Positions 3,799 to 8,309 of a stretch of 32,756 nt of DNA are shown one piece after another. The translations under genes and the position numbers were made by a program. Location of the stretch: IMG/VR virus record IMGVR_UViG_2519899562_000018, one strand, 5' to 3'. The DNA comes from a virus. Its lineage: Duplodnaviria; Heunggongvirae; Uroviricota; Caudoviricetes. The notes under the pieces are model-generated. The model was not told the origin of the DNA. It worked only from the letters and a program-made list of their open reading frames with translations, and did no database searches. Each line of letters starts with the position of its first letter. Position 1 is the stretch's first letter.

Positions 3799-4731
3799 AT
3801 GACTGATATTAACGATGTAATCAAGACCATTGATGAACTTATTGATGGCGGCGTACTGACGCAGTATGCCATCGCCAGAGAGGCGGGAATTTCCGACGGC
3901 ACATTATCGGCTTTCCGTAAGGGAAAATATAAAGGCGATAACGCTGCTGTGGCTGCTTCCCTGCGTTCCTGGTATGAGAACTGGAATAAACAAAGCGCAC
4001 TGCCGGAACCGCCGCAGTTTGTGGAAACGCAGACAGTCCAGGAGCTGCGCGCACTGTTTCAGGCGGTTCGTCTGATGGGCTGTATTAACGTTATTGTGGG
4101 CGTACCGGGTGTGGGTAAAACGGCCACTGCCCGTAATTACTGCCAGGAGCAACCAAACACCTGGATGATCACCCTGTCACCCGCGCACTCCAGCGTCACG
4201 GAGTGTCTGCTGGAGCTGGCCGATGCGCTGGGGATTGATTACACCCGCGCGAACAAAGGGGCATTATCCCGCGCCATCCGCCGTCGCCTGATGGGAACGC
4301 GTGGACTGGTGATTGTGGATGAGGCGGATCATCTTGGTATTGACGGTCTGGAGCAACTCCGGGCAATTCAGGACGCCACGGGGATCGGGATGGTGCTTAT
4401 TGGTAACCCGCGCGGATTGTTTAAAGGTGGACGCCGCGCCTTTGATGATTTATCGCGCCTGTTCAGCCGTCTTGCCCGTACAAAACAACTTCGCAAGGCC
4501 AAAAAGGCGGATGTGCTGGCCATTGCCAGGGCGTGGGGGATCAGTGGTGAGGCCGAGCTGGCCGTCATGCAGGCTATCGCTGAAAAGCCGGGAGCGTTAC
4601 GCGTTCTGACACATACGCTTAACCAGGCGTGGCTCACCGCCAGCGGTGAAGGCGCGGCGCTGACAGAAAAACATATTAATGCGGCCTTTAAAGAGGTTTA
4701 TACCAACCCTGAATTACTCTCACAGGTGTGA
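3799..4731 (+). CDS. MuB-like AAA+ ATPase, transposition target-DNA activator
   Basis: 310 aa (Mu B is 312 aa); Walker A GVPGVGKT, Walker B-like LVIVDEADHL; N-terminal HTH-like segment; directly after transposase. Confidence 0.85.
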   Translation: MTDINDVIKTIDELIDGGVLTQYAIAREAGISDGTLSAFRKGKYKGDNAAVAASLRSWYENWNKQSALPEPPQFVETQTVQELRALFQAVRLMGCINVIVGVPGVGKTATARNYCQEQPNTWMITLSPAHSSVTECLLELADALGIDYTRANKGALSRAIRRRLMGTRGLVIVDEADHLGIDGLEQLRAIQDATGIGMVLIGNPRGLFKGGRRAFDDLSRLFSRLARTKQLRKAKKADVLAIARAWGISGEAELAVMQAIAEKPGALRVLTHTLNQAWLTASGEGAALTEKHINAAFKEVYTNPELLSQV

Positions 4732-4955
4732 TTATGGCGGTATTTAATATTCCTGATATTTACGGACGCTTTTACCTGGTTAATTTCGATAACGTGAAGG
4801 TGATTTCACTGGCCGAAAATAAAGAATGTGGCGATTTTCTTTTTGAATTTAATGACCGCACACGAATGGTGATATCTGCCGGACTTGATCGCGAAGGTGC
4901 GACAGACGTTTACAGCGGAATATGCCGTTCTGTTGGTGCGAAACAAGTCAGCTAA
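4728..4955 (+). CDS. Small early protein (positional analogue of Mu kil), hypothetical
   Basis: 75 aa; ATGA overlap with B stop (translational coupling); function not recognisable from sequence. Confidence 0.5.
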   Translation: MIMAVFNIPDIYGRFYLVNFDNVKVISLAENKECGDFLFEFNDRTRMVISAGLDREGATDVYSGICRSVGAKQVS

Positions 4956-5222
4956 ATGAGGTGTTATATGAATATGCAATCCTGCGGTAACAAAATGAAT
5001 TTATTCGACTCCCTGAACAGCGCGCGCCGTCTGACCGAACTTGCCGGTGCGGTACTGGAACGCAGTAAGCGCTATCCGCAACGTTTTGCACTGAAAACCA
5101 CGCCGCCGGTAGGCAACGTGCAGGGAACCGGTGAAATTGAAATCACCATACAGACCAACGGCCTGCGCCGCCGTGTGAAGGCCACCCGCATCAGCGGCTG
5201 CACGGTTTACTGGGAGGTGTGA
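4956..5222 (+). CDS. Hypothetical early protein (true start may be ATG at 4968)
   Basis: 88 aa ORF in early operon; GAGGTG SD upstream of 4968. Confidence 0.45.
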   Translation: MRCYMNMQSCGNKMNLFDSLNSARRLTELAGAVLERSKRYPQRFALKTTPPVGNVQGTGEIEITIQTNGLRRRVKATRISGCTVYWEV

Positions 5223-5223
5223 G

Positions 5224-5505
5224 GTGAAAAAAAATCTCATTGCATGGGCGTGGTCGAGTGGTCTTATTGAGTTTGGTTACGTCCTGCCGGAAGGTGCATT
5301 GCCGATAGTTGCCGGAAAGCCTGCCACGGTACGGCATGTGATTGAGGTTATGGCGCGTCATGGACGTGATGAACAGGAGCAGTTACTGGTTCCGGGGATA
5401 CCGGAAGCGGTGACGGAGGAAGAAGCCTTTAATGCCATGATTCGGTTCTGCCGTGAGGTCAGACGCCGGGTCAGTTATCCAAACAGAACGAGGACCAGAG
5501 GATGA
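5224..5505 (+). CDS. Hypothetical early protein (GTG start)
   Basis: 93 aa; GGAGGTG SD six nt upstream; tight packing with neighbours. Confidence 0.45.
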   Translation: MKKNLIAWAWSSGLIEFGYVLPEGALPIVAGKPATVRHVIEVMARHGRDEQEQLLVPGIPEAVTEEEAFNAMIRFCREVRRRVSYPNRTRTRG

Positions 5506-5774
5506 GTAAAGTCGTACGCATTATTTTCGAATACAAGGAGCACGTTATCCATAAAAACGCTGATGGAACAGTGCGCATGGGGGTAAGTCTGGACATACGT
5601 TCAACCGGGATAAAGCAGAAAGGTGATGGACCCGCCATGATTTTTGGGGTGGTTATGCTCGCGGAAAGCAGAGACTTTGCTGAACTTGTGGCAATGAAAG
5701 CCAGTGCGCTCATGAAAGATATGAGCATGCGTTCCGGGGTTATTAAAGGTAATGAATTTAATCAGCAGGGGTAA
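5502..5774 (+). CDS. Hypothetical early protein, paralogue 1 (N-terminus MSKVVRIIFEYKEH)
   Basis: 90 aa; ATGA overlap with upstream gene; N-terminus and 5' nucleotide sequence similar to the next gene. Confidence 0.5.
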   Translation: MSKVVRIIFEYKEHVIHKNADGTVRMGVSLDIRSTGIKQKGDGPAMIFGVVMLAESRDFAELVAMKASALMKDMSMRSGVIKGNEFNQQG

Positions 5775-5778
5775 TTCC

Positions 5779-6072
5779 ATGAGCAAAGTACGCGTTATTT
5801 TTGAATTTAAGCATGTTTCGCATGACGAAAAACCGGCAGGCAATGACTGTGTTGAAGTGCATGAAAAGATTGGTGTGGATGTAAAAACAGAACGTGATAC
5901 GAATAACAGGCCGACGTCACTCTGTGACGTTTATGCAAGTATTCTCCAGTATCACAGTCCTGAAATTATTCAGTTTCTCTCAGCGGAATTTCAGGCATCT
6001 GTACAGGCTTTTGGGGCGGATGCCATCATTAAACGCCACCGCGTGCATAAAGCATCAGGCACACTGCAATAA
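5779..6072 (+). CDS. Hypothetical early protein, paralogue 2 (N-terminus MSKVRVIFEFKH)
   Basis: 98 aa from ATG 5779 (track frame opens at 5752, but 5779 has an SD and parallels paralogue 1). Confidence 0.5.
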   Translation: MSKVRVIFEFKHVSHDEKPAGNDCVEVHEKIGVDVKTERDTNNRPTSLCDVYASILQYHSPEIIQFLSAEFQASVQAFGADAIIKRHRVHKASGTLQ

Positions 6073-6083
6073 GGAAAAACAAA

Positions 6084-6614
6084 ATGGCTAAACGTGTTAC
6101 AAAATTAAAGGCCGCAGCCGAGGCTGCACCGCAGACCCGCGAAGAAGTCAGCCGCGATATCCGTACCCTGGGCGATATTCAGCGAGAGGCGCTGCGGCTG
6201 GAAACGGCGATGAATGATGAAGTGGCAGAAATCACCGCCCGTTATACGCCGCAGATTGAAAACCTTAAAAAAGAAATCAAAGTGCTTTTTAAGGGGATTC
6301 AGGACTGGTGCAAAACCAACCGCGATGAGCTGACGAACGGCGGCAAAACCAAAACAGCCAATCTGACCACCGGAACAGTATCATGGCGGCTGGGAAATCC
6401 ATCATGCAGCGTCAGCCGTGATGTGGAAGGTGTGATTGAAATGCTGCGCCGTATGGGGCTTGAGCGATTCATCCGCACGAAAGAGGAAGTGAACAAGGAA
6501 GCGGTCCTGGCGGAGCCGGATGCAGTGAAAGGCATTGCCGGTATTAAGGTGAATAAAGGCGCTGAAAGTTTTTATGTCGAGCCTTTTGAACAGGACGCCG
6601 GACTGAATAAATAA
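6084..6614 (+). CDS. gam: Gam host-nuclease inhibitor (Mu Gam / Ku-like DNA-end binding protein)
   Basis: 176 aa; strong resemblance to recalled Mu Gam (LETxMND..AEIT, NRDELTNGGKxKTANL, RFIRTK.E.NKEA, PFEQ.AG). Confidence 0.9.
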   Translation: MAKRVTKLKAAAEAAPQTREEVSRDIRTLGDIQREALRLETAMNDEVAEITARYTPQIENLKKEIKVLFKGIQDWCKTNRDELTNGGKTKTANLTTGTVSWRLGNPSCSVSRDVEGVIEMLRRMGLERFIRTKEEVNKEAVLAEPDAVKGIAGIKVNKGAESFYVEPFEQDAGLNK

Positions 6615-6711
6615 CACCGCATTAAATCTTTAAATATCACATCGTTTTAAGTATGGCGCTCGCGTCAGGGGACTGCCTGCGCCTGTAAACTGAAAATAAG
6701 GAACAGGATAT

Positions 6712-7254
6712 ATGGCATATTTTTATTTCAAATTAGACCGTGTGCAGACAAATAAATATTTCACCAAATATCAACAGACTGTTTTACCGCTACGCAACAG
6801 TATTCTTCGGGCATTACTGAAAAATACAGGCGCTGCCGGATTGCGCTTAAAGCCGTTTGCCATGGACGTAATCAGTGAGTTTTATTTTTCTGGTGCTCTG
6901 CCTGCGGGCTGGCGTAAGCGCGATGATGTGGCTTTTATCGGGGACGGACCGTGCTTTATTGCCAGACCTGATGAGTCATGCCCTGAAGGACCGGCGATTG
7001 CCGCAATGATTGAAGCCGCTGAACGCGAGTTAAGAAAGCGTCCTGATTTCCTTGTCTGGCTCTGTGAAAAGCTGGGGGTAATGAGAATCCCCTCCATGTT
7101 TAACATGGACTCCTGGTGGACCCCGTCGCTCTCCCGTGATGCCCTGTGCGTGGTGTTTAAAGTAGGCGCTTATGGCAGGGAAATAAAAGGGGGTATTCCT
7201 GAAGAATGCCAGGAGATTAAACATTCTGAATATGTGGCGCTGACGGAGGAATAA
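6712..7254 (+). CDS. Hypothetical early protein
   Basis: 180 aa; AGGAAC SD; no recognisable motif. Confidence 0.55.
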   Translation: MAYFYFKLDRVQTNKYFTKYQQTVLPLRNSILRALLKNTGAAGLRLKPFAMDVISEFYFSGALPAGWRKRDDVAFIGDGPCFIARPDESCPEGPAIAAMIEAAERELRKRPDFLVWLCEKLGVMRIPSMFNMDSWWTPSLSRDALCVVFKVGAYGREIKGGIPEECQEIKHSEYVALTEE

Positions 7255-7257
7255 TTC

Positions 7258-7791
7258 ATGATTGATGCAAAAGTGCTTGAAGGGGTTAAAAACTGGCTGA
7301 GTATTTACGGGCGTCTGACCTGCGGCATTCTGGCTGAAAAAATGAATATGCCGCCATCCTCGATGGTTTATTTTCTGCGTGATGCGGTCGATGCCGGGGT
7401 GCTGACGGAATGTAACGGTTTTTATGATATTCCGCGTCCCCGCCCGGTGCAGCCGGTTCGTCGCAAATGCAGCCAGGAAGGTGCGGCTGATGATGTTCAG
7501 TGGTGCAGCTTCAGAAAATCCCTGCCGTGGATTGAGGGGCATGATATTCCGTCAATGGCGTGGGAATTTGCTCAGGGCGTTCTGACCTGTGAAACCGTTT
7601 ATGTGGTGGCTGAAGTTGATGAGCAGGCCATGAAAGAAGGCGTGCCCCAGTTTGTGATGGCGTATATCGACATACGCCTGGGTGTCATTATCTGCGGTTT
7701 AAGCGGCTGGAATATCACCTCGCGCGTTCTGCGTTACCTGATTGTTGACCGGACGGCCGCGCCTGCCGGGATATCTGCGGAGGTGGCGTAA
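7258..7791 (+). CDS. Hypothetical early protein with possible N-terminal winged-helix segment
   Basis: 177 aa; N-terminal LTCGILAEKMNMPPSSMVYFLRDAVDAGVL resembles a MarR-like wHTH. Confidence 0.55.
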   Translation: MIDAKVLEGVKNWLSIYGRLTCGILAEKMNMPPSSMVYFLRDAVDAGVLTECNGFYDIPRPRPVQPVRRKCSQEGAADDVQWCSFRKSLPWIEGHDIPSMAWEFAQGVLTCETVYVVAEVDEQAMKEGVPQFVMAYIDIRLGVIICGLSGWNITSRVLRYLIVDRTAAPAGISAEVA

Positions 7792-8306
7792 TGTTCTTTA
7801 AAACATCAAACCCTTCCGCGCTGGCCGCGTGGCAAAAATATCAGCAGGACTGCCAGAAAGTTAAGGATGAGGCAAAACGCCTTGAGGCCGTGCTGAATGT
7901 TGCGTGCCGGTCGGTATTTGTATCCGGTATCAGTGGCTTTTGTTTTAAAGGGCTGCGCTTTATGGATGACAAATATCCTTTTCATCGCGACTTATGGCGA
8001 AAACCGACTGCGTCGAATGGCTGGAGCTGCACACCGCGCACATCACGTATTCCCAAAGCCCTGCGCGTTGCCTCTGACGAACTTAACAGTCTGTGGCGTG
8101 AATATTCGCCCGTCACGTATGCCAGAACCGATGCACTGTTGTTCTGGCTGGGTATTGATTTCTCGGCAATCATGTTTGGCCCTGTGAAGTGGTTCTGCGT
8201 TGACGATGTGATTTACCTTGAGTGCGGCGTAAAACCCGCAAATCAGAAAATGACCGAAATTCTGTCTGATGAGTTTTATGCTGCTGAAAAGCGAGTCAGG
8301 GGGTGA
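7791..8306 (+). CDS. Hypothetical early protein
   Basis: 171 aa; TAATG stop-start overlap with upstream gene. Confidence 0.55.
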   Translation: MFFKTSNPSALAAWQKYQQDCQKVKDEAKRLEAVLNVACRSVFVSGISGFCFKGLRFMDDKYPFHRDLWRKPTASNGWSCTPRTSRIPKALRVASDELNSLWREYSPVTYARTDALLFWLGIDFSAIMFGPVKWFCVDDVIYLECGVKPANQKMTEILSDEFYAAEKRVRG

Positions 8307-8309
8307 TGT

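What the first reader, a model, noticed from the sequence alone, without database searches (positions are those of the whole stretch)
6712..8306. Three tightly coupled uncharacterised ~170-180 aa early proteins between gam and the low-GC island
These three ORFs overlap or abut (TAATG, 3-nt gaps) and lie in the semi-essential early region. One has an N-terminal winged-helix-like segment. I could not assign any of them to a known Mu function from the sequence alone; early-region proteins of transposable phages often manipulate host replication, repair or defence.
Basis: inference. Interest (0 to 1): 0.45.

Follow-up and report, generated by a model that had tools for sequence, protein, structure and literature searches.

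The report
Mu gp11/gp12 plus an EaC-like paralogue
The three genes are real, uncharacterised early genes of a Mu-like E. coli prophage: counterparts of Mu gp11 and gp12 plus an extra relative of phage P22 EaC. They are ordinary swappable accessory genes, but the first and third turn out to be distant relatives sharing a fold with no close solved structure.

Summary
Three same-strand ORFs lie at exactly the stated coordinates (180, 177 and 171 aa). Each has a Shine-Dalgarno sequence, and the junctions are TAA-TTC-ATG and TAATG. All three are under purifying selection.

**Identity**
- **ORF2** is Mu gp11 (67% identity; Pfam Gp11_C).
- **ORF3** is Mu gp12 (55%; phrog_2314).
- **ORF1** is absent from Mu. 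It is a divergent member of the P22 EaC/DUF5420 family (phrog_2260).

**New here**
- With deep profiles, the EaC/DUF5420 and gp12 families are homologous (hhalign 92%, E 5.6e-7, full length), and their AF2 models have matching secondary structure. ORF1 and ORF3 are therefore distant paralogues flanking gp11.

**Not a fixed trio**
- In gp11-anchored loci all four partner combinations occur (34, 24, 6 and 14).
- Close relatives have lost ORF1 by deletion.
- gp12-like genes stand alone in unrelated phages.

**Function**
- It remains unknown. No catalytic motif is conserved, and dN/dS is 2-7 times higher than in core genes.
- My best guess, at low confidence, is that these are non-enzymatic lytic-phase factors that bind host or defence proteins.
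- The rival is the unassigned classical Mu 'arm' replication function.

The finding is ordinary and of modest interest.

The parts
6615..6711 (+). gam-ORF1 spacer carrying the ORF1 ribosome-binding site. It is conserved as far as phage Mu, where it directly precedes gp11.
   Evidence: Window 6582-6693 is about 75% identical to Mu 6299-6406. The RNA fold is no more stable than shuffled sequence (z -0.32). No promoter or terminator signal exceeds chance.
6712..7254 (+). ORF1, 180 aa. A divergent member of the P22 EaC / DUF5420 family (phrog_2260). It is an accessory gene absent from Mu and a distant paralogue of ORF3.
   Evidence: phrog_2260 at 1.1e-74; the same PHROG matches P22 EaC at 3.8e-71. 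It is 40% identical to SfMu gp11, annotated 'DUF5420 family protein'. An exhaustive HMMER search reaches core DUF5420 proteins at E 8e-10 to 3e-4. The Pfam DUF5420 model itself does not detect the window copy. AF2 model: pLDDT 88.6, pTM 0.80. dN/dS 0.35. Deleted in close relatives.
7258..7791 (+). ORF2, 177 aa. Orthologue of Mu gp11 (Mup11). It has a conserved acidic N-terminal domain (aa 1-58, possibly winged-helix), a variable Pro/Arg-rich linker, and a Gp11_C domain (aa 90-167).
   Evidence: Pfam PF25754 Gp11_C at 7.9e-40 (135.5 bits against a cut-off of 27). phrog_1949 at 2.2e-105. 67% identity to Mu gp11 over 177 aa. Domain layout from alignment A4. Weak HTH hints only. pI 5.0. dN/dS 0.19.
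7791..8306 (+). ORF3, 171 aa. Orthologue of Mu gp12 (Mup12). Its family (phrog_2314; homologues tagged PF26885) also occurs alone in early regions of phages that are not Mu-like. Distant paralogue of ORF1.
   Evidence: phrog_2314 at 1.4e-85. 55% identity to Mu gp12. Homologues carry PF26885. 26-30% identity to Klebsiella, Vibrio, Acinetobacter and Pseudomonas phage proteins. hhalign against the EaC/DUF5420 profile: 92.3%, E 5.6e-7. AF2 model pLDDT 70.3. dN/dS 0.19.
8310..8861 (+). Context only: ORF4, 183 aa. A basic HTH protein translationally coupled to ORF3 (3-nt gap), at the start of the lower-GC stretch.
   Evidence: phrog_323 'transcriptional regulator, D5-like' at 6.3e-59. Sub-threshold HTH and Myb Pfam hits. 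pI 9.9. RefSeq names it 'DNA-binding protein'. It follows gp12 in many relatives.

Best explanation
Shown: these are three real, co-transcribed and translationally coupled genes of the early lytic operon of a Mu-like E. coli prophage. ORF2 and ORF3 are orthologues of Mu gp11 and gp12. ORF1 is an extra, divergent member of the P22 EaC/DUF5420 family. ORF1 and ORF3 are distant paralogues in one alpha+beta superfamily (EaC/DUF5420 plus gp12) whose fold has no close solved relative. The three are independently gained and lost, so they are not an obligate system.

Inferred: because they lie in the repressor-controlled early operon, they are made only during lytic growth. They most likely act as small non-enzymatic binding proteins that each engage a host or host-defence component (host takeover or counter-defence). 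Divergent paralogues in one phage would then address different targets or target variants. gp11 probably uses its small N-terminal helical domain and its Gp11_C domain for protein or nucleic-acid contacts of its own.

The identities are secure (about 0.9). The stated mechanism is a low-confidence inference, and the confidence figure given refers to it.
For: Identity.

Paralogy of ORF1 and ORF3:
- hhalign of deep profiles gives 92.3% probability, E 5.6e-7, over 154 collinear columns. Negative controls against gp11 give E 0.6 over 17-21 columns.
- The AF2 models have the same order of secondary-structure elements.
- Under that alignment, secondary structure agrees at 69% of positions, against 32% mean and 50% maximum for shifted controls. 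81 of 87 positions structured in both have the same type.
- Motifs are shared: N-terminal [YF][YF]K and C-terminal EI..SE[YF]..A.

Accessory character:
- All four partner combinations occur around gp11: 34, 24, 6 and 14 loci.
- ORF1 is cleanly deleted in relatives that are more than 88% identical, and in Mu.
- Some phages carry three copies of the superfamily (L039/L100).
- gp12-like genes stand alone in early operons of unrelated phages, often just downstream of CI/LexA-type repressors.
- P22 eaC lies in the ea region, which I recall as non-essential (position).

Faster protein evolution: dN/dS of 0.19-0.35 against 0.05-0.11 for MuB, Gam, Mor and GemA.

Not an enzyme: almost no polar residue is invariant across the families. 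The E/S/E of the C-terminal motif is replaced by K/G/Q in the EaC branch. There is no match to any enzyme family.

Precedent: another gene of the same Mu early region, E6/Mup07, is a 'gnarl' accessory gene acting on the host O-antigen barrier (bioRxiv 10.1101/2023.04.06.535777).

Lytic-only expression follows from established knowledge that the Mu early operon is repressed by the c repressor in lysogens.
Against: - No direct evidence of any host or defence target exists, and no similarity to any known anti-defence protein was found. No anti-defence library was available, and PADLOC covers defence proteins only.
- Raised dN/dS and presence/absence variation fit relaxed constraint on any dispensable gene as well as an arms race.
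- The locus counts are not phylogenetically independent.
- One study reported that a P22 eaC-eaE deletion gave no viable particles (PMC11016777). If that is not a polar effect, it argues against pure dispensability.
- pI varies from 5.5 to 9.5 within each family, so no common binding chemistry can be read from composition.
- The ORF3 model is only moderate (pLDDT 70).
- The ORF1 and ORF3 models could not be superposed directly.
Confidence: 0.4

Rival explanations
1. The genes encode auxiliary factors for phage DNA replication, transposition or recombination. For example, they could be the classical but never assigned Mu 'arm' (amplified replication of Mu) function, acting on phage DNA or on the transposition machinery alongside Gam.
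For: - They lie directly downstream of gam, in the interval where classical early functions remain unassigned. [quoted passage not shown]
- My recollection of the classical map places arm between gam/sot and lig/gem. That is memory, not a test.
- Relatives in other phages sit among DNA-metabolism genes: P22 eaC is downstream of erf and abc1/abc2, a Vibrio homologue is near a DNA ligase, and an Acinetobacter homologue is upstream of Bet.
- gp11 may carry a small HTH-like domain.
- gp11 is the most constant of the three in position and sequence.
Against: - No similarity to any replication, recombination or DNA-binding family.
- The gp11 N-terminal domain is acidic, and family pI is inconsistent.
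- The genes are freely lost between near-identical phages, which is unexpected for a factor tuned to the phage's own replication.
- The same family serves phages with quite different replication modes (transposable, lambdoid, and a Lastavirus-genus phage).
Confidence: 0.2
2. gp11 is a DNA-binding transcription regulator of the early-to-middle switch or of host genes. The EaC/gp12-type proteins would be co-regulators.
For: - There are sub-threshold matches of the N-terminal 60 residues to three winged-helix-type families.
- This segment is the most conserved part of gp11.
- The neighbouring genes ORF4, GemA and Mor are regulators.
Against: - The HTH hits are all far below Pfam thresholds (12-13.5 bits against cut-offs of 22-27).
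- The domain has pI 5.0.
- PDB profile searches find no HTH protein.
- gp11 exists without either partner in 14 loci, and the partners exist without gp11 in many phages, so a fixed regulator/co-regulator pair is not supported.
Confidence: 0.1
3. The three genes form one obligate three-component (or gp11 plus partner) complex or system.
For: They show tight translational coupling. In the loci fetched through the partners, gp11 always had at least one EaC/gp12-type neighbour.
Against: When loci were fetched through gp11 itself, 14 of 80 had neither partner. The slot after gp11 was then filled by unrelated small genes. gp12- and EaC-type genes occur without gp11 in Mannheimia, P22-like, Klebsiella, Vibrio, Acinetobacter and Pseudomonas phages.
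Confidence: 0.03

Closest known systems
Phage Mu gp11 (Mup11; Pfam PF25754 Gp11_C; phrog_1949)
   Same: ORF2 is collinear with it and 67% identical over its full length. It has the same domain layout, follows gam in the same way, and has the same 1-nt overlap with the next gene.
   Different: Only sequence divergence. In this prophage an extra gene (ORF1) lies between gam and gp11. Mu gp11 itself has no known function.
Phage Mu gp12 (Mup12; UniProt GP12_BPMU; phrog_2314; PF26885 tag on homologues)
   Same: ORF3 is 55% identical over its full length, has the same position after gp11, and belongs to the same PHROG.
   Different: It diverges faster than gp11. The genes downstream of it differ: ORF4 and a low-GC block here, against gp13-gp15 in Mu. 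No function is known.
Salmonella phage P22 EaC (gene eaC) and the DUF5420 family (PF17457; phrog_2260)
   Same: ORF1 and P22 EaC both match phrog_2260 over their full length (1.1e-74 and 3.8e-71). Both are of similar size (about 180-210 aa). ORF1 shares the N-terminal aromatic-rich strand with the family as a whole, and the C-terminal EIKxSE[FY][IV]ALTEE motif with the DUF5420 core; the EaC branch instead ends in ITYG.FYD. Both lie in an early operon downstream of an anti-RecBCD gene (gam here, abc1/abc2 in P22).
   Different: The window copy is not detected by Pfam's DUF5420 model. It is about 20-25% identical to core members. Its central motif PDRRYKEGK is degraded to PDESCPEGP. It lies in a transposable phage, next to gp11 and not next to xis/int. 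EaC has no known function.
Mu E6/Mup07 'gnarl2' and other phage accessory genes (Silas et al., bioRxiv 10.1101/2023.04.06.535777)
   Same: A small, non-enzymatic-looking, variable gene in the same Mu early region, shown there to modify a host barrier. This is a functional analogy only.
   Different: There is no sequence relationship. The window has no detectable Mup05-Mup08 homologues: the five small window ORFs of the B-gam interval (4728-6072) have no match in Mu.

Membership tests
Mu gp11 / Pfam PF25754 (Gp11_C) | Match to the Gp11_C model above Pfam's gathering score | tested here: met
   135.5 bits against a cut-off of 27, covering profile positions 1-78 of 78; 137.6 bits for the C-terminal fragment alone.
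Mu gp11 / Pfam PF25754 (Gp11_C) | Full-length collinear similarity to Mu gp11, and a position after gam | tested here: met
   67% identity over aa 1-177 to Mu 6424-6951. The order gam-(ORF1)-gp11-gp12 appears.
Mu gp12 / phrog_2314 / PF26885 | Full-length similarity to Mu gp12 and a match to phrog_2314 | tested here: met
   55% identity over aa 1-168; phrog_2314 at 1.4e-85 over profile positions 2-169 of 173.
Mu gp12 / phrog_2314 / PF26885 | Match to the Pfam PF26885 model | not testable with these tools
   The model is not in the local Pfam copy (no hit). Homologues down to 47% identity carry the precomputed PF26885 tag.
EaC / DUF5420 (phrog_2260, Pfam PF17457) | Match to Pfam PF17457 above its gathering score (26 bits) | tested here: not met
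   No hit at E up to 1 for the window protein. Close relatives P0004 and P0014 score only 15-16 bits, and P22 EaC and SfMu gp11 score nothing. ORF1 is therefore filed under the wider EaC/phrog_2260 family and not as a Pfam-defined DUF5420 member.
EaC / DUF5420 (phrog_2260, Pfam PF17457) | Full-length match to the PHROG that contains P22 EaC and annotated DUF5420 proteins | tested here: met
   phrog_2260: ORF1 1.1e-74; P22 EaC 3.8e-71; Mannheimia 'DUF5420 family protein' 1.5e-61; core members 1e-26 to 2e-31.
EaC / DUF5420 (phrog_2260, Pfam PF17457) | Significant profile link to core DUF5420 proteins in an unbiased search | tested here: met
   The ORF1-lineage profile finds P0185-P0202 at E 8e-10 to 3e-4 among 1.84 billion proteins. 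23 of 24 proteins in alignment A5 hit PF17457 at E up to 1, best 9.3e-28.
EaC / DUF5420 (phrog_2260, Pfam PF17457) | Family motifs: N-terminal YFK strand, central PDRRYKEGK, C-terminal EIKxSE[FY][IV]ALTEE | tested here: inconclusive
   The N-terminal YFYFK and the C-terminal EIKHSEYVALTEE are present. The central motif is degraded to PDESCPEGP.
EaC/DUF5420 + gp12 superfamily (proposed here) | Significant profile-profile similarity over the full length, with controls | tested here: met
   hhalign A5 against A3: 92.3%, E 5.6e-7, 154 columns. Shallow profiles were not significant (E 0.54 and 0.11). Controls against gp11 gave E 0.6.
EaC/DUF5420 + gp12 superfamily (proposed here) | Same three-dimensional fold | tested here: inconclusive
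Winged-helix DNA-binding domain (gp11 N-terminus) | Significant match to an HTH or winged-helix profile or structure | tested here: inconclusive
   Only HTH_10, HTH_20 and PCI at E 0.09-0.18 (12-13.5 bits, below cut-offs). No HTH protein appears in PDB searches.
Winged-helix DNA-binding domain (gp11 N-terminus) | Basic, DNA-contacting surface | tested here: not met
   Residues 1-60 have pI 5.0 and net charge -1.5. The gp11 family median pI is 5.4.
Known anti-phage defence systems (PADLOC) | Match to any defence-protein model | tested here: not met
   No hit at E up to 1 for ORF1-3.
Known anti-defence proteins | Sequence or structure match to a characterised anti-defence protein | not testable with these tools

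The most novel reading that the evidence does not exclude
The EaC/DUF5420 + gp12 superfamily could be a widespread and so far unrecognised class of early phage inhibitors of host immunity or host takeover, built on a fold with no solved relative. It is present in the model phages Mu and P22 and in Klebsiella, Vibrio, Acinetobacter, Pseudomonas and Pasteurellaceae phages. Phages that carry two or three divergent copies, as this one does, would use them against different host targets.
Probability: 0.25. Interest if true: 0.6.

Novelty: new member of a known kind. Interest (0 to 1): 0.3.

Why it matters
On its own this is routine. It places three 'hypothetical' EHEC prophage genes into catalogued phage families of unknown function.

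Two points have wider use.
- Mu gp12 and P22 EaC are decades-old unassigned genes of two model phages. They appear to belong to one superfamily spread over many phage types, so a single functional study in Mu or P22 would annotate a large set of early genes.
- The interval downstream of gam behaves as a swap site where genes are exchanged or deleted between near-identical phages. That is the signature used to find counter-defence and host-takeover genes, and another gene of the same Mu region has already proved to be one.

The block is present in about 4% of complete E. coli genomes, mostly Shiga-toxin-producing lineages.

Tried and rejected
1. BLASTP and shallow profile comparison of ORF1 with ORF3 were not significant. 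The link appeared only after both families were deepened.
2. The idea that gp11 always needs an adjacent EaC/gp12-type partner came from partner-anchored loci. gp11-anchored loci rejected it: 14 had neither partner, and relaxed searches found no hidden divergent copy there.
3. No solved relatives were found by PDB sequence or profile searches for any of the three families. Only chance-level MIF matches turned up.
5. AFDB50 was unavailable. BFVD gave full-length matches to unnamed phage proteins (TM up to 0.75), but these could not be identified.
6. NCBIfam and PADLOC gave nothing.
7. A regulatory RNA or terminator in the gam-ORF1 spacer is not supported.
8. Fusions of the DUF5420 domain with informative domains were not found. 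The single long hit (P0203, 2,505 aa) is a repeat protein and likely spurious.
9. Literature searches for DUF5420, gp11/gp12, Mup11/12 and EaC returned no functional data. Some hits were false: 'phage mutant' and mouse Mup genes.
10. A genome-contig scan for gp11 found one extra locus only, in Citrobacter.
Full report
**1. The observation**

The window carries three consecutive + strand ORFs at 6712-7254 (180 aa), 7258-7791 (177 aa) and 7791-8306 (171 aa), which are the finding's exact limits.
- The junctions are TAA-TTC-ATG, TAATG (one shared base) and TGA-TGT-ATG to a fourth ORF at 8310.
- Each start has a Shine-Dalgarno sequence.
- Promoter- and terminator-like sites in 6000-9200 do not exceed chance, so the genes lie inside one transcription unit.
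- Upstream is gam (6084-6614; Pfam Phage_Mu_Gam 1.5e-41). Further upstream are MuA and MuB, and downstream are GemA, Mor and lysozyme.
- GC falls to 0.41-0.43 at 8501-9500.
- The window is 100% identical over this block to a Mu-like prophage of E. coli O157:H7 strain Show KS 470-1, which interrupts betT. It is 96% identical to Mu-like inserts in Stx-converting phages. The block is in 233 of 5,426 complete E. coli genomes.
- Among distinct alleles, dN/dS is 0.35 (ORF1), 0.19 (ORF2) and 0.19 (ORF3). All three are therefore under purifying selection and are real genes.

**2. Identities**

ORF2 matches Pfam PF25754, 'Phage Mu Gp11 C-terminal domain', at 135.5 bits (cut-off 27) on residues 90-167, and phrog_1949 at 2.2e-105. 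It is 67% identical over its whole length to Mu gp11/Mup11. In Mu numbering gam is gp10. The family alignment shows three parts:
- a very conserved N-terminal segment (1-58);
- a variable Pro/Arg-rich linker;
- the C-terminal domain.

ORF3 matches phrog_2314 at 1.4e-85 and is 55% identical to Mu gp12/Mup12, UniProt GP12_BPMU. Its homologues carry a precomputed tag, PF26885, that is not in the local Pfam copy.

ORF1 has no counterpart in Mu, where gam and gp11 are about 100 nt apart.
- It is 37-40% identical to a gene in the same slot in SfMu and in Yersinia Mu-like phages. RefSeq names the SfMu gene 'DUF5420 family protein'.
- An exhaustive HMMER search with the ORF1-lineage profile found only 26 cluster representatives among 1.84 billion proteins at E up to 0.001. 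Most of these are core DUF5420 proteins.
- One of them, P0198, is 31-33% identical to EaC of Salmonella phages P22, ST64T and L.
- PHROGs independently puts ORF1 (1.1e-74), P22 EaC (3.8e-71) and a Mannheimia Mu-like phage 'DUF5420 family protein' (1.5e-61) in phrog_2260.
- Pfam's own DUF5420 model does not detect the window protein, SfMu gp11 or P22 EaC, and scores their relatives below threshold.
- ORF1 is therefore best described as a divergent member of the wider EaC/DUF5420 family.

**3. ORF1 and ORF3 are distant paralogues**

The two proteins share N-terminal ([YF][YF]K...KYQQ) and C-terminal (EI..SE[YF]..A) features.
- BLASTP and shallow profile comparisons were not significant (E 0.52, 0.54 and 0.11).
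- I then deepened the ORF1 family with the exhaustive search (alignment A5) and the gp12 family with Klebsiella, Vibrio, Acinetobacter and Pseudomonas phage homologues (alignment A3).
- hhalign then gave 92.3% probability and E 5.6e-7 over 154 collinear columns spanning nearly both proteins.
- Both families compared with the unrelated gp11 alignment gave E 0.6 over 17-21 columns.
- AF2 models were obtained for ORF1 (pLDDT 88.6, pTM 0.80) and ORF3 (pLDDT 70.3, pTM 0.61). They show the same order of elements: strand, long helix or helices, hairpin(s), two helices, hairpin, strand, helix.
- Under the hhalign alignment the two DSSP strings agree at 69% of 151 positions, against 32% mean and 50% maximum for shifted controls. 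81 of 87 positions structured in both have the same type.
- The models could not be superposed directly, so the shared fold is strongly suggested and not proven.

Fold searches:
- Foldseek against BFVD found full-length matches to unnamed phage proteins of 178-196 aa (TM up to 0.75, E down to 6e-9) at 16-18% identity.

**4. Not an obligate trio**

In loci fetched through ORF1 or gp12 homology, gp11 always had a partner, but that sample is biased.

| Arrangement around gp11 (loci fetched through gp11) | Loci |
|---|---|
| EaC-type upstream and gp12 downstream | 34 |
| gp12 only | 24 |
| EaC-type only | 6 |
| Neither | 14 |

- In the 'neither' loci the slot after gp11 holds unrelated small genes, and relaxed searches find no hidden copy.
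- Some phages have two tandem EaC-type genes plus gp11 and gp12 (L039/L100).
- gp12-type genes occur without gp11 in Klebsiella Lastavirus, 83-kb Vibrio phages, and Acinetobacter and Pseudomonas phages. They also occur in many uncultivated phages, usually early in the operon next to a CI/LexA-type repressor.
- EaC-type genes occur without gp11 in Mannheimia Mu-like phage and in P22-like phages.
- Close relatives of this prophage that lack ORF1 keep its first 18 nt and last 5 nt, leaving a 14-codon remnant. Mu shows the same junctions. ORF1 was therefore lost by deletion in those lineages.
- gp11 itself is narrowly distributed: one further species (Citrobacter) among one genome per species.

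**5. What they might do**

No function is reported for Mu gp11 or gp12, for DUF5420 or for EaC in the searchable literature.

The indirect evidence is as follows.
- The genes lie in the early operon. By established knowledge of Mu, the c repressor silences this operon in lysogens, so the proteins are made in lytic growth.
- They are dispensable and swappable (section 4). Their proteins evolve 2-7 times faster than MuB, Gam, Mor and GemA, whose dN/dS is 0.05-0.11.
- There is no conserved catalytic constellation. Almost no polar residue is invariant, and the E/S/E of the C-terminal motif becomes K/G/Q in the EaC branch.
- pI ranges from 5.5 to 9.5 within each family, which argues against a uniform DNA-mimic or nucleic-acid-binding role.
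- One phage can carry several divergent paralogues.
- Another gene of the same Mu region, E6/Mup07, is a 'gnarl' accessory gene acting on the O-antigen barrier (bioRxiv 10.1101/2023.04.06.535777).

Together these favour small non-enzymatic binders of host or defence components, at low confidence (about 0.4).

The main rival (about 0.2) is an auxiliary role in phage DNA replication or transposition.
- The classical 'arm', 'cim' and 'sot' functions of the 4.3-10 kb region were never tied to ORFs (PMC4553209).
- From memory, arm maps between gam and gem.
- Relatives in other phages often sit among recombination genes.

A regulatory role for gp11 (about 0.1) rests on sub-threshold winged-helix hints and is weakened by the acidity of that domain (pI 5.0). 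One report that a P22 eaC-eaE deletion was inviable (PMC11016777) may reflect polarity.

**6. Verdict**

Novelty is 'new member of a known kind'. The modest new insight is the superfamily link between EaC/DUF5420 and gp12, together with the mix-and-match behaviour of the slot downstream of gam. Interest is 0.3.

Noticed in passing
window 8310-8861 (ORF4) and 8858-9890: A basic (pI 9.9) 183-aa HTH protein (phrog_323 'transcriptional regulator, D5-like'; weak Myb and sigma-70 region 4 hints) is translationally coupled to ORF3. It opens the lower-GC block (GC 0.41-0.47), which holds four small ORFs (8858-9043, 9040-9414, 9407-9604, 9594-9890). Mu's much shorter gp9 (E8) matches the same profile but lies upstream of gam. 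This block replaces Mu gp13-gp15.
   Followed up: partly
window 4728-6072: The five small ORFs between MuB and gam (4728-4955, 4956-5222, 5224-5505, 5502-5774, 5752-6072) have no detectable counterparts in Mu's gp5-gp9 (kil...E8) at E below 1e-4. This interval is therefore also mosaic. The 93-aa ORF at 5224-5505 matches phrog_1518, labelled 'host nuclease inhibitor', which suggests a second nuclease-inhibitor-like gene ahead of gam.
   Followed up: partly
L063 4438-4459, L067, L070 (relatives more than 88% identical); Mu (L001) 6406-6409: Phages lacking ORF1 retain its RBS, start codon, first 18 nt and last 5 nt, giving a 14-codon remnant ORF (MKYVYIVINNVVGK). This indicates a clean internal deletion of about 520-550 nt and not an insertion in the window.
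   Followed up: yes
window 6615-6711: The gam-ORF1 spacer is conserved as far as Mu (about 75%) and contains a GC-rich inverted repeat (GGCGC...GCGCC). Its predicted RNA fold is no more stable than shuffled sequence (z -0.32), and no terminator or promoter is called.
   Followed up: yes
L006 (NZ_CP038309.1), locus positions 954-1145: In E. coli O157:H7 strain Show KS 470-1 the identical prophage is inserted in the choline transporter gene betT. That gene is annotated as a truncated pseudogene next to betI/betB, consistent with Mu-type random transposition into a host gene.
   Followed up: no
L039 / L100 (IMGVR_UViG_2663762818_000004): One Mu-like contig carries two tandem EaC/DUF5420-type genes ahead of gp11 and gp12. 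That makes three members of the superfamily in a row around gp11.
   Followed up: no
L196 (P22 BK000583.1), locus 3964-4486: In P22 the eaC coding region overlaps, on the opposite strand, the annotated aI antisense RNA, its C1-activated promoter and a C1 binding site. Constraints on eaC sequence in P22-like phages are therefore partly regulatory.
   Followed up: no
protein cluster of P0001: Many database copies of ORF1 are annotated as 177 aa and not 180 aa. This suggests either a 3-codon indel or an alternative start call among near-identical alleles.
   Followed up: no
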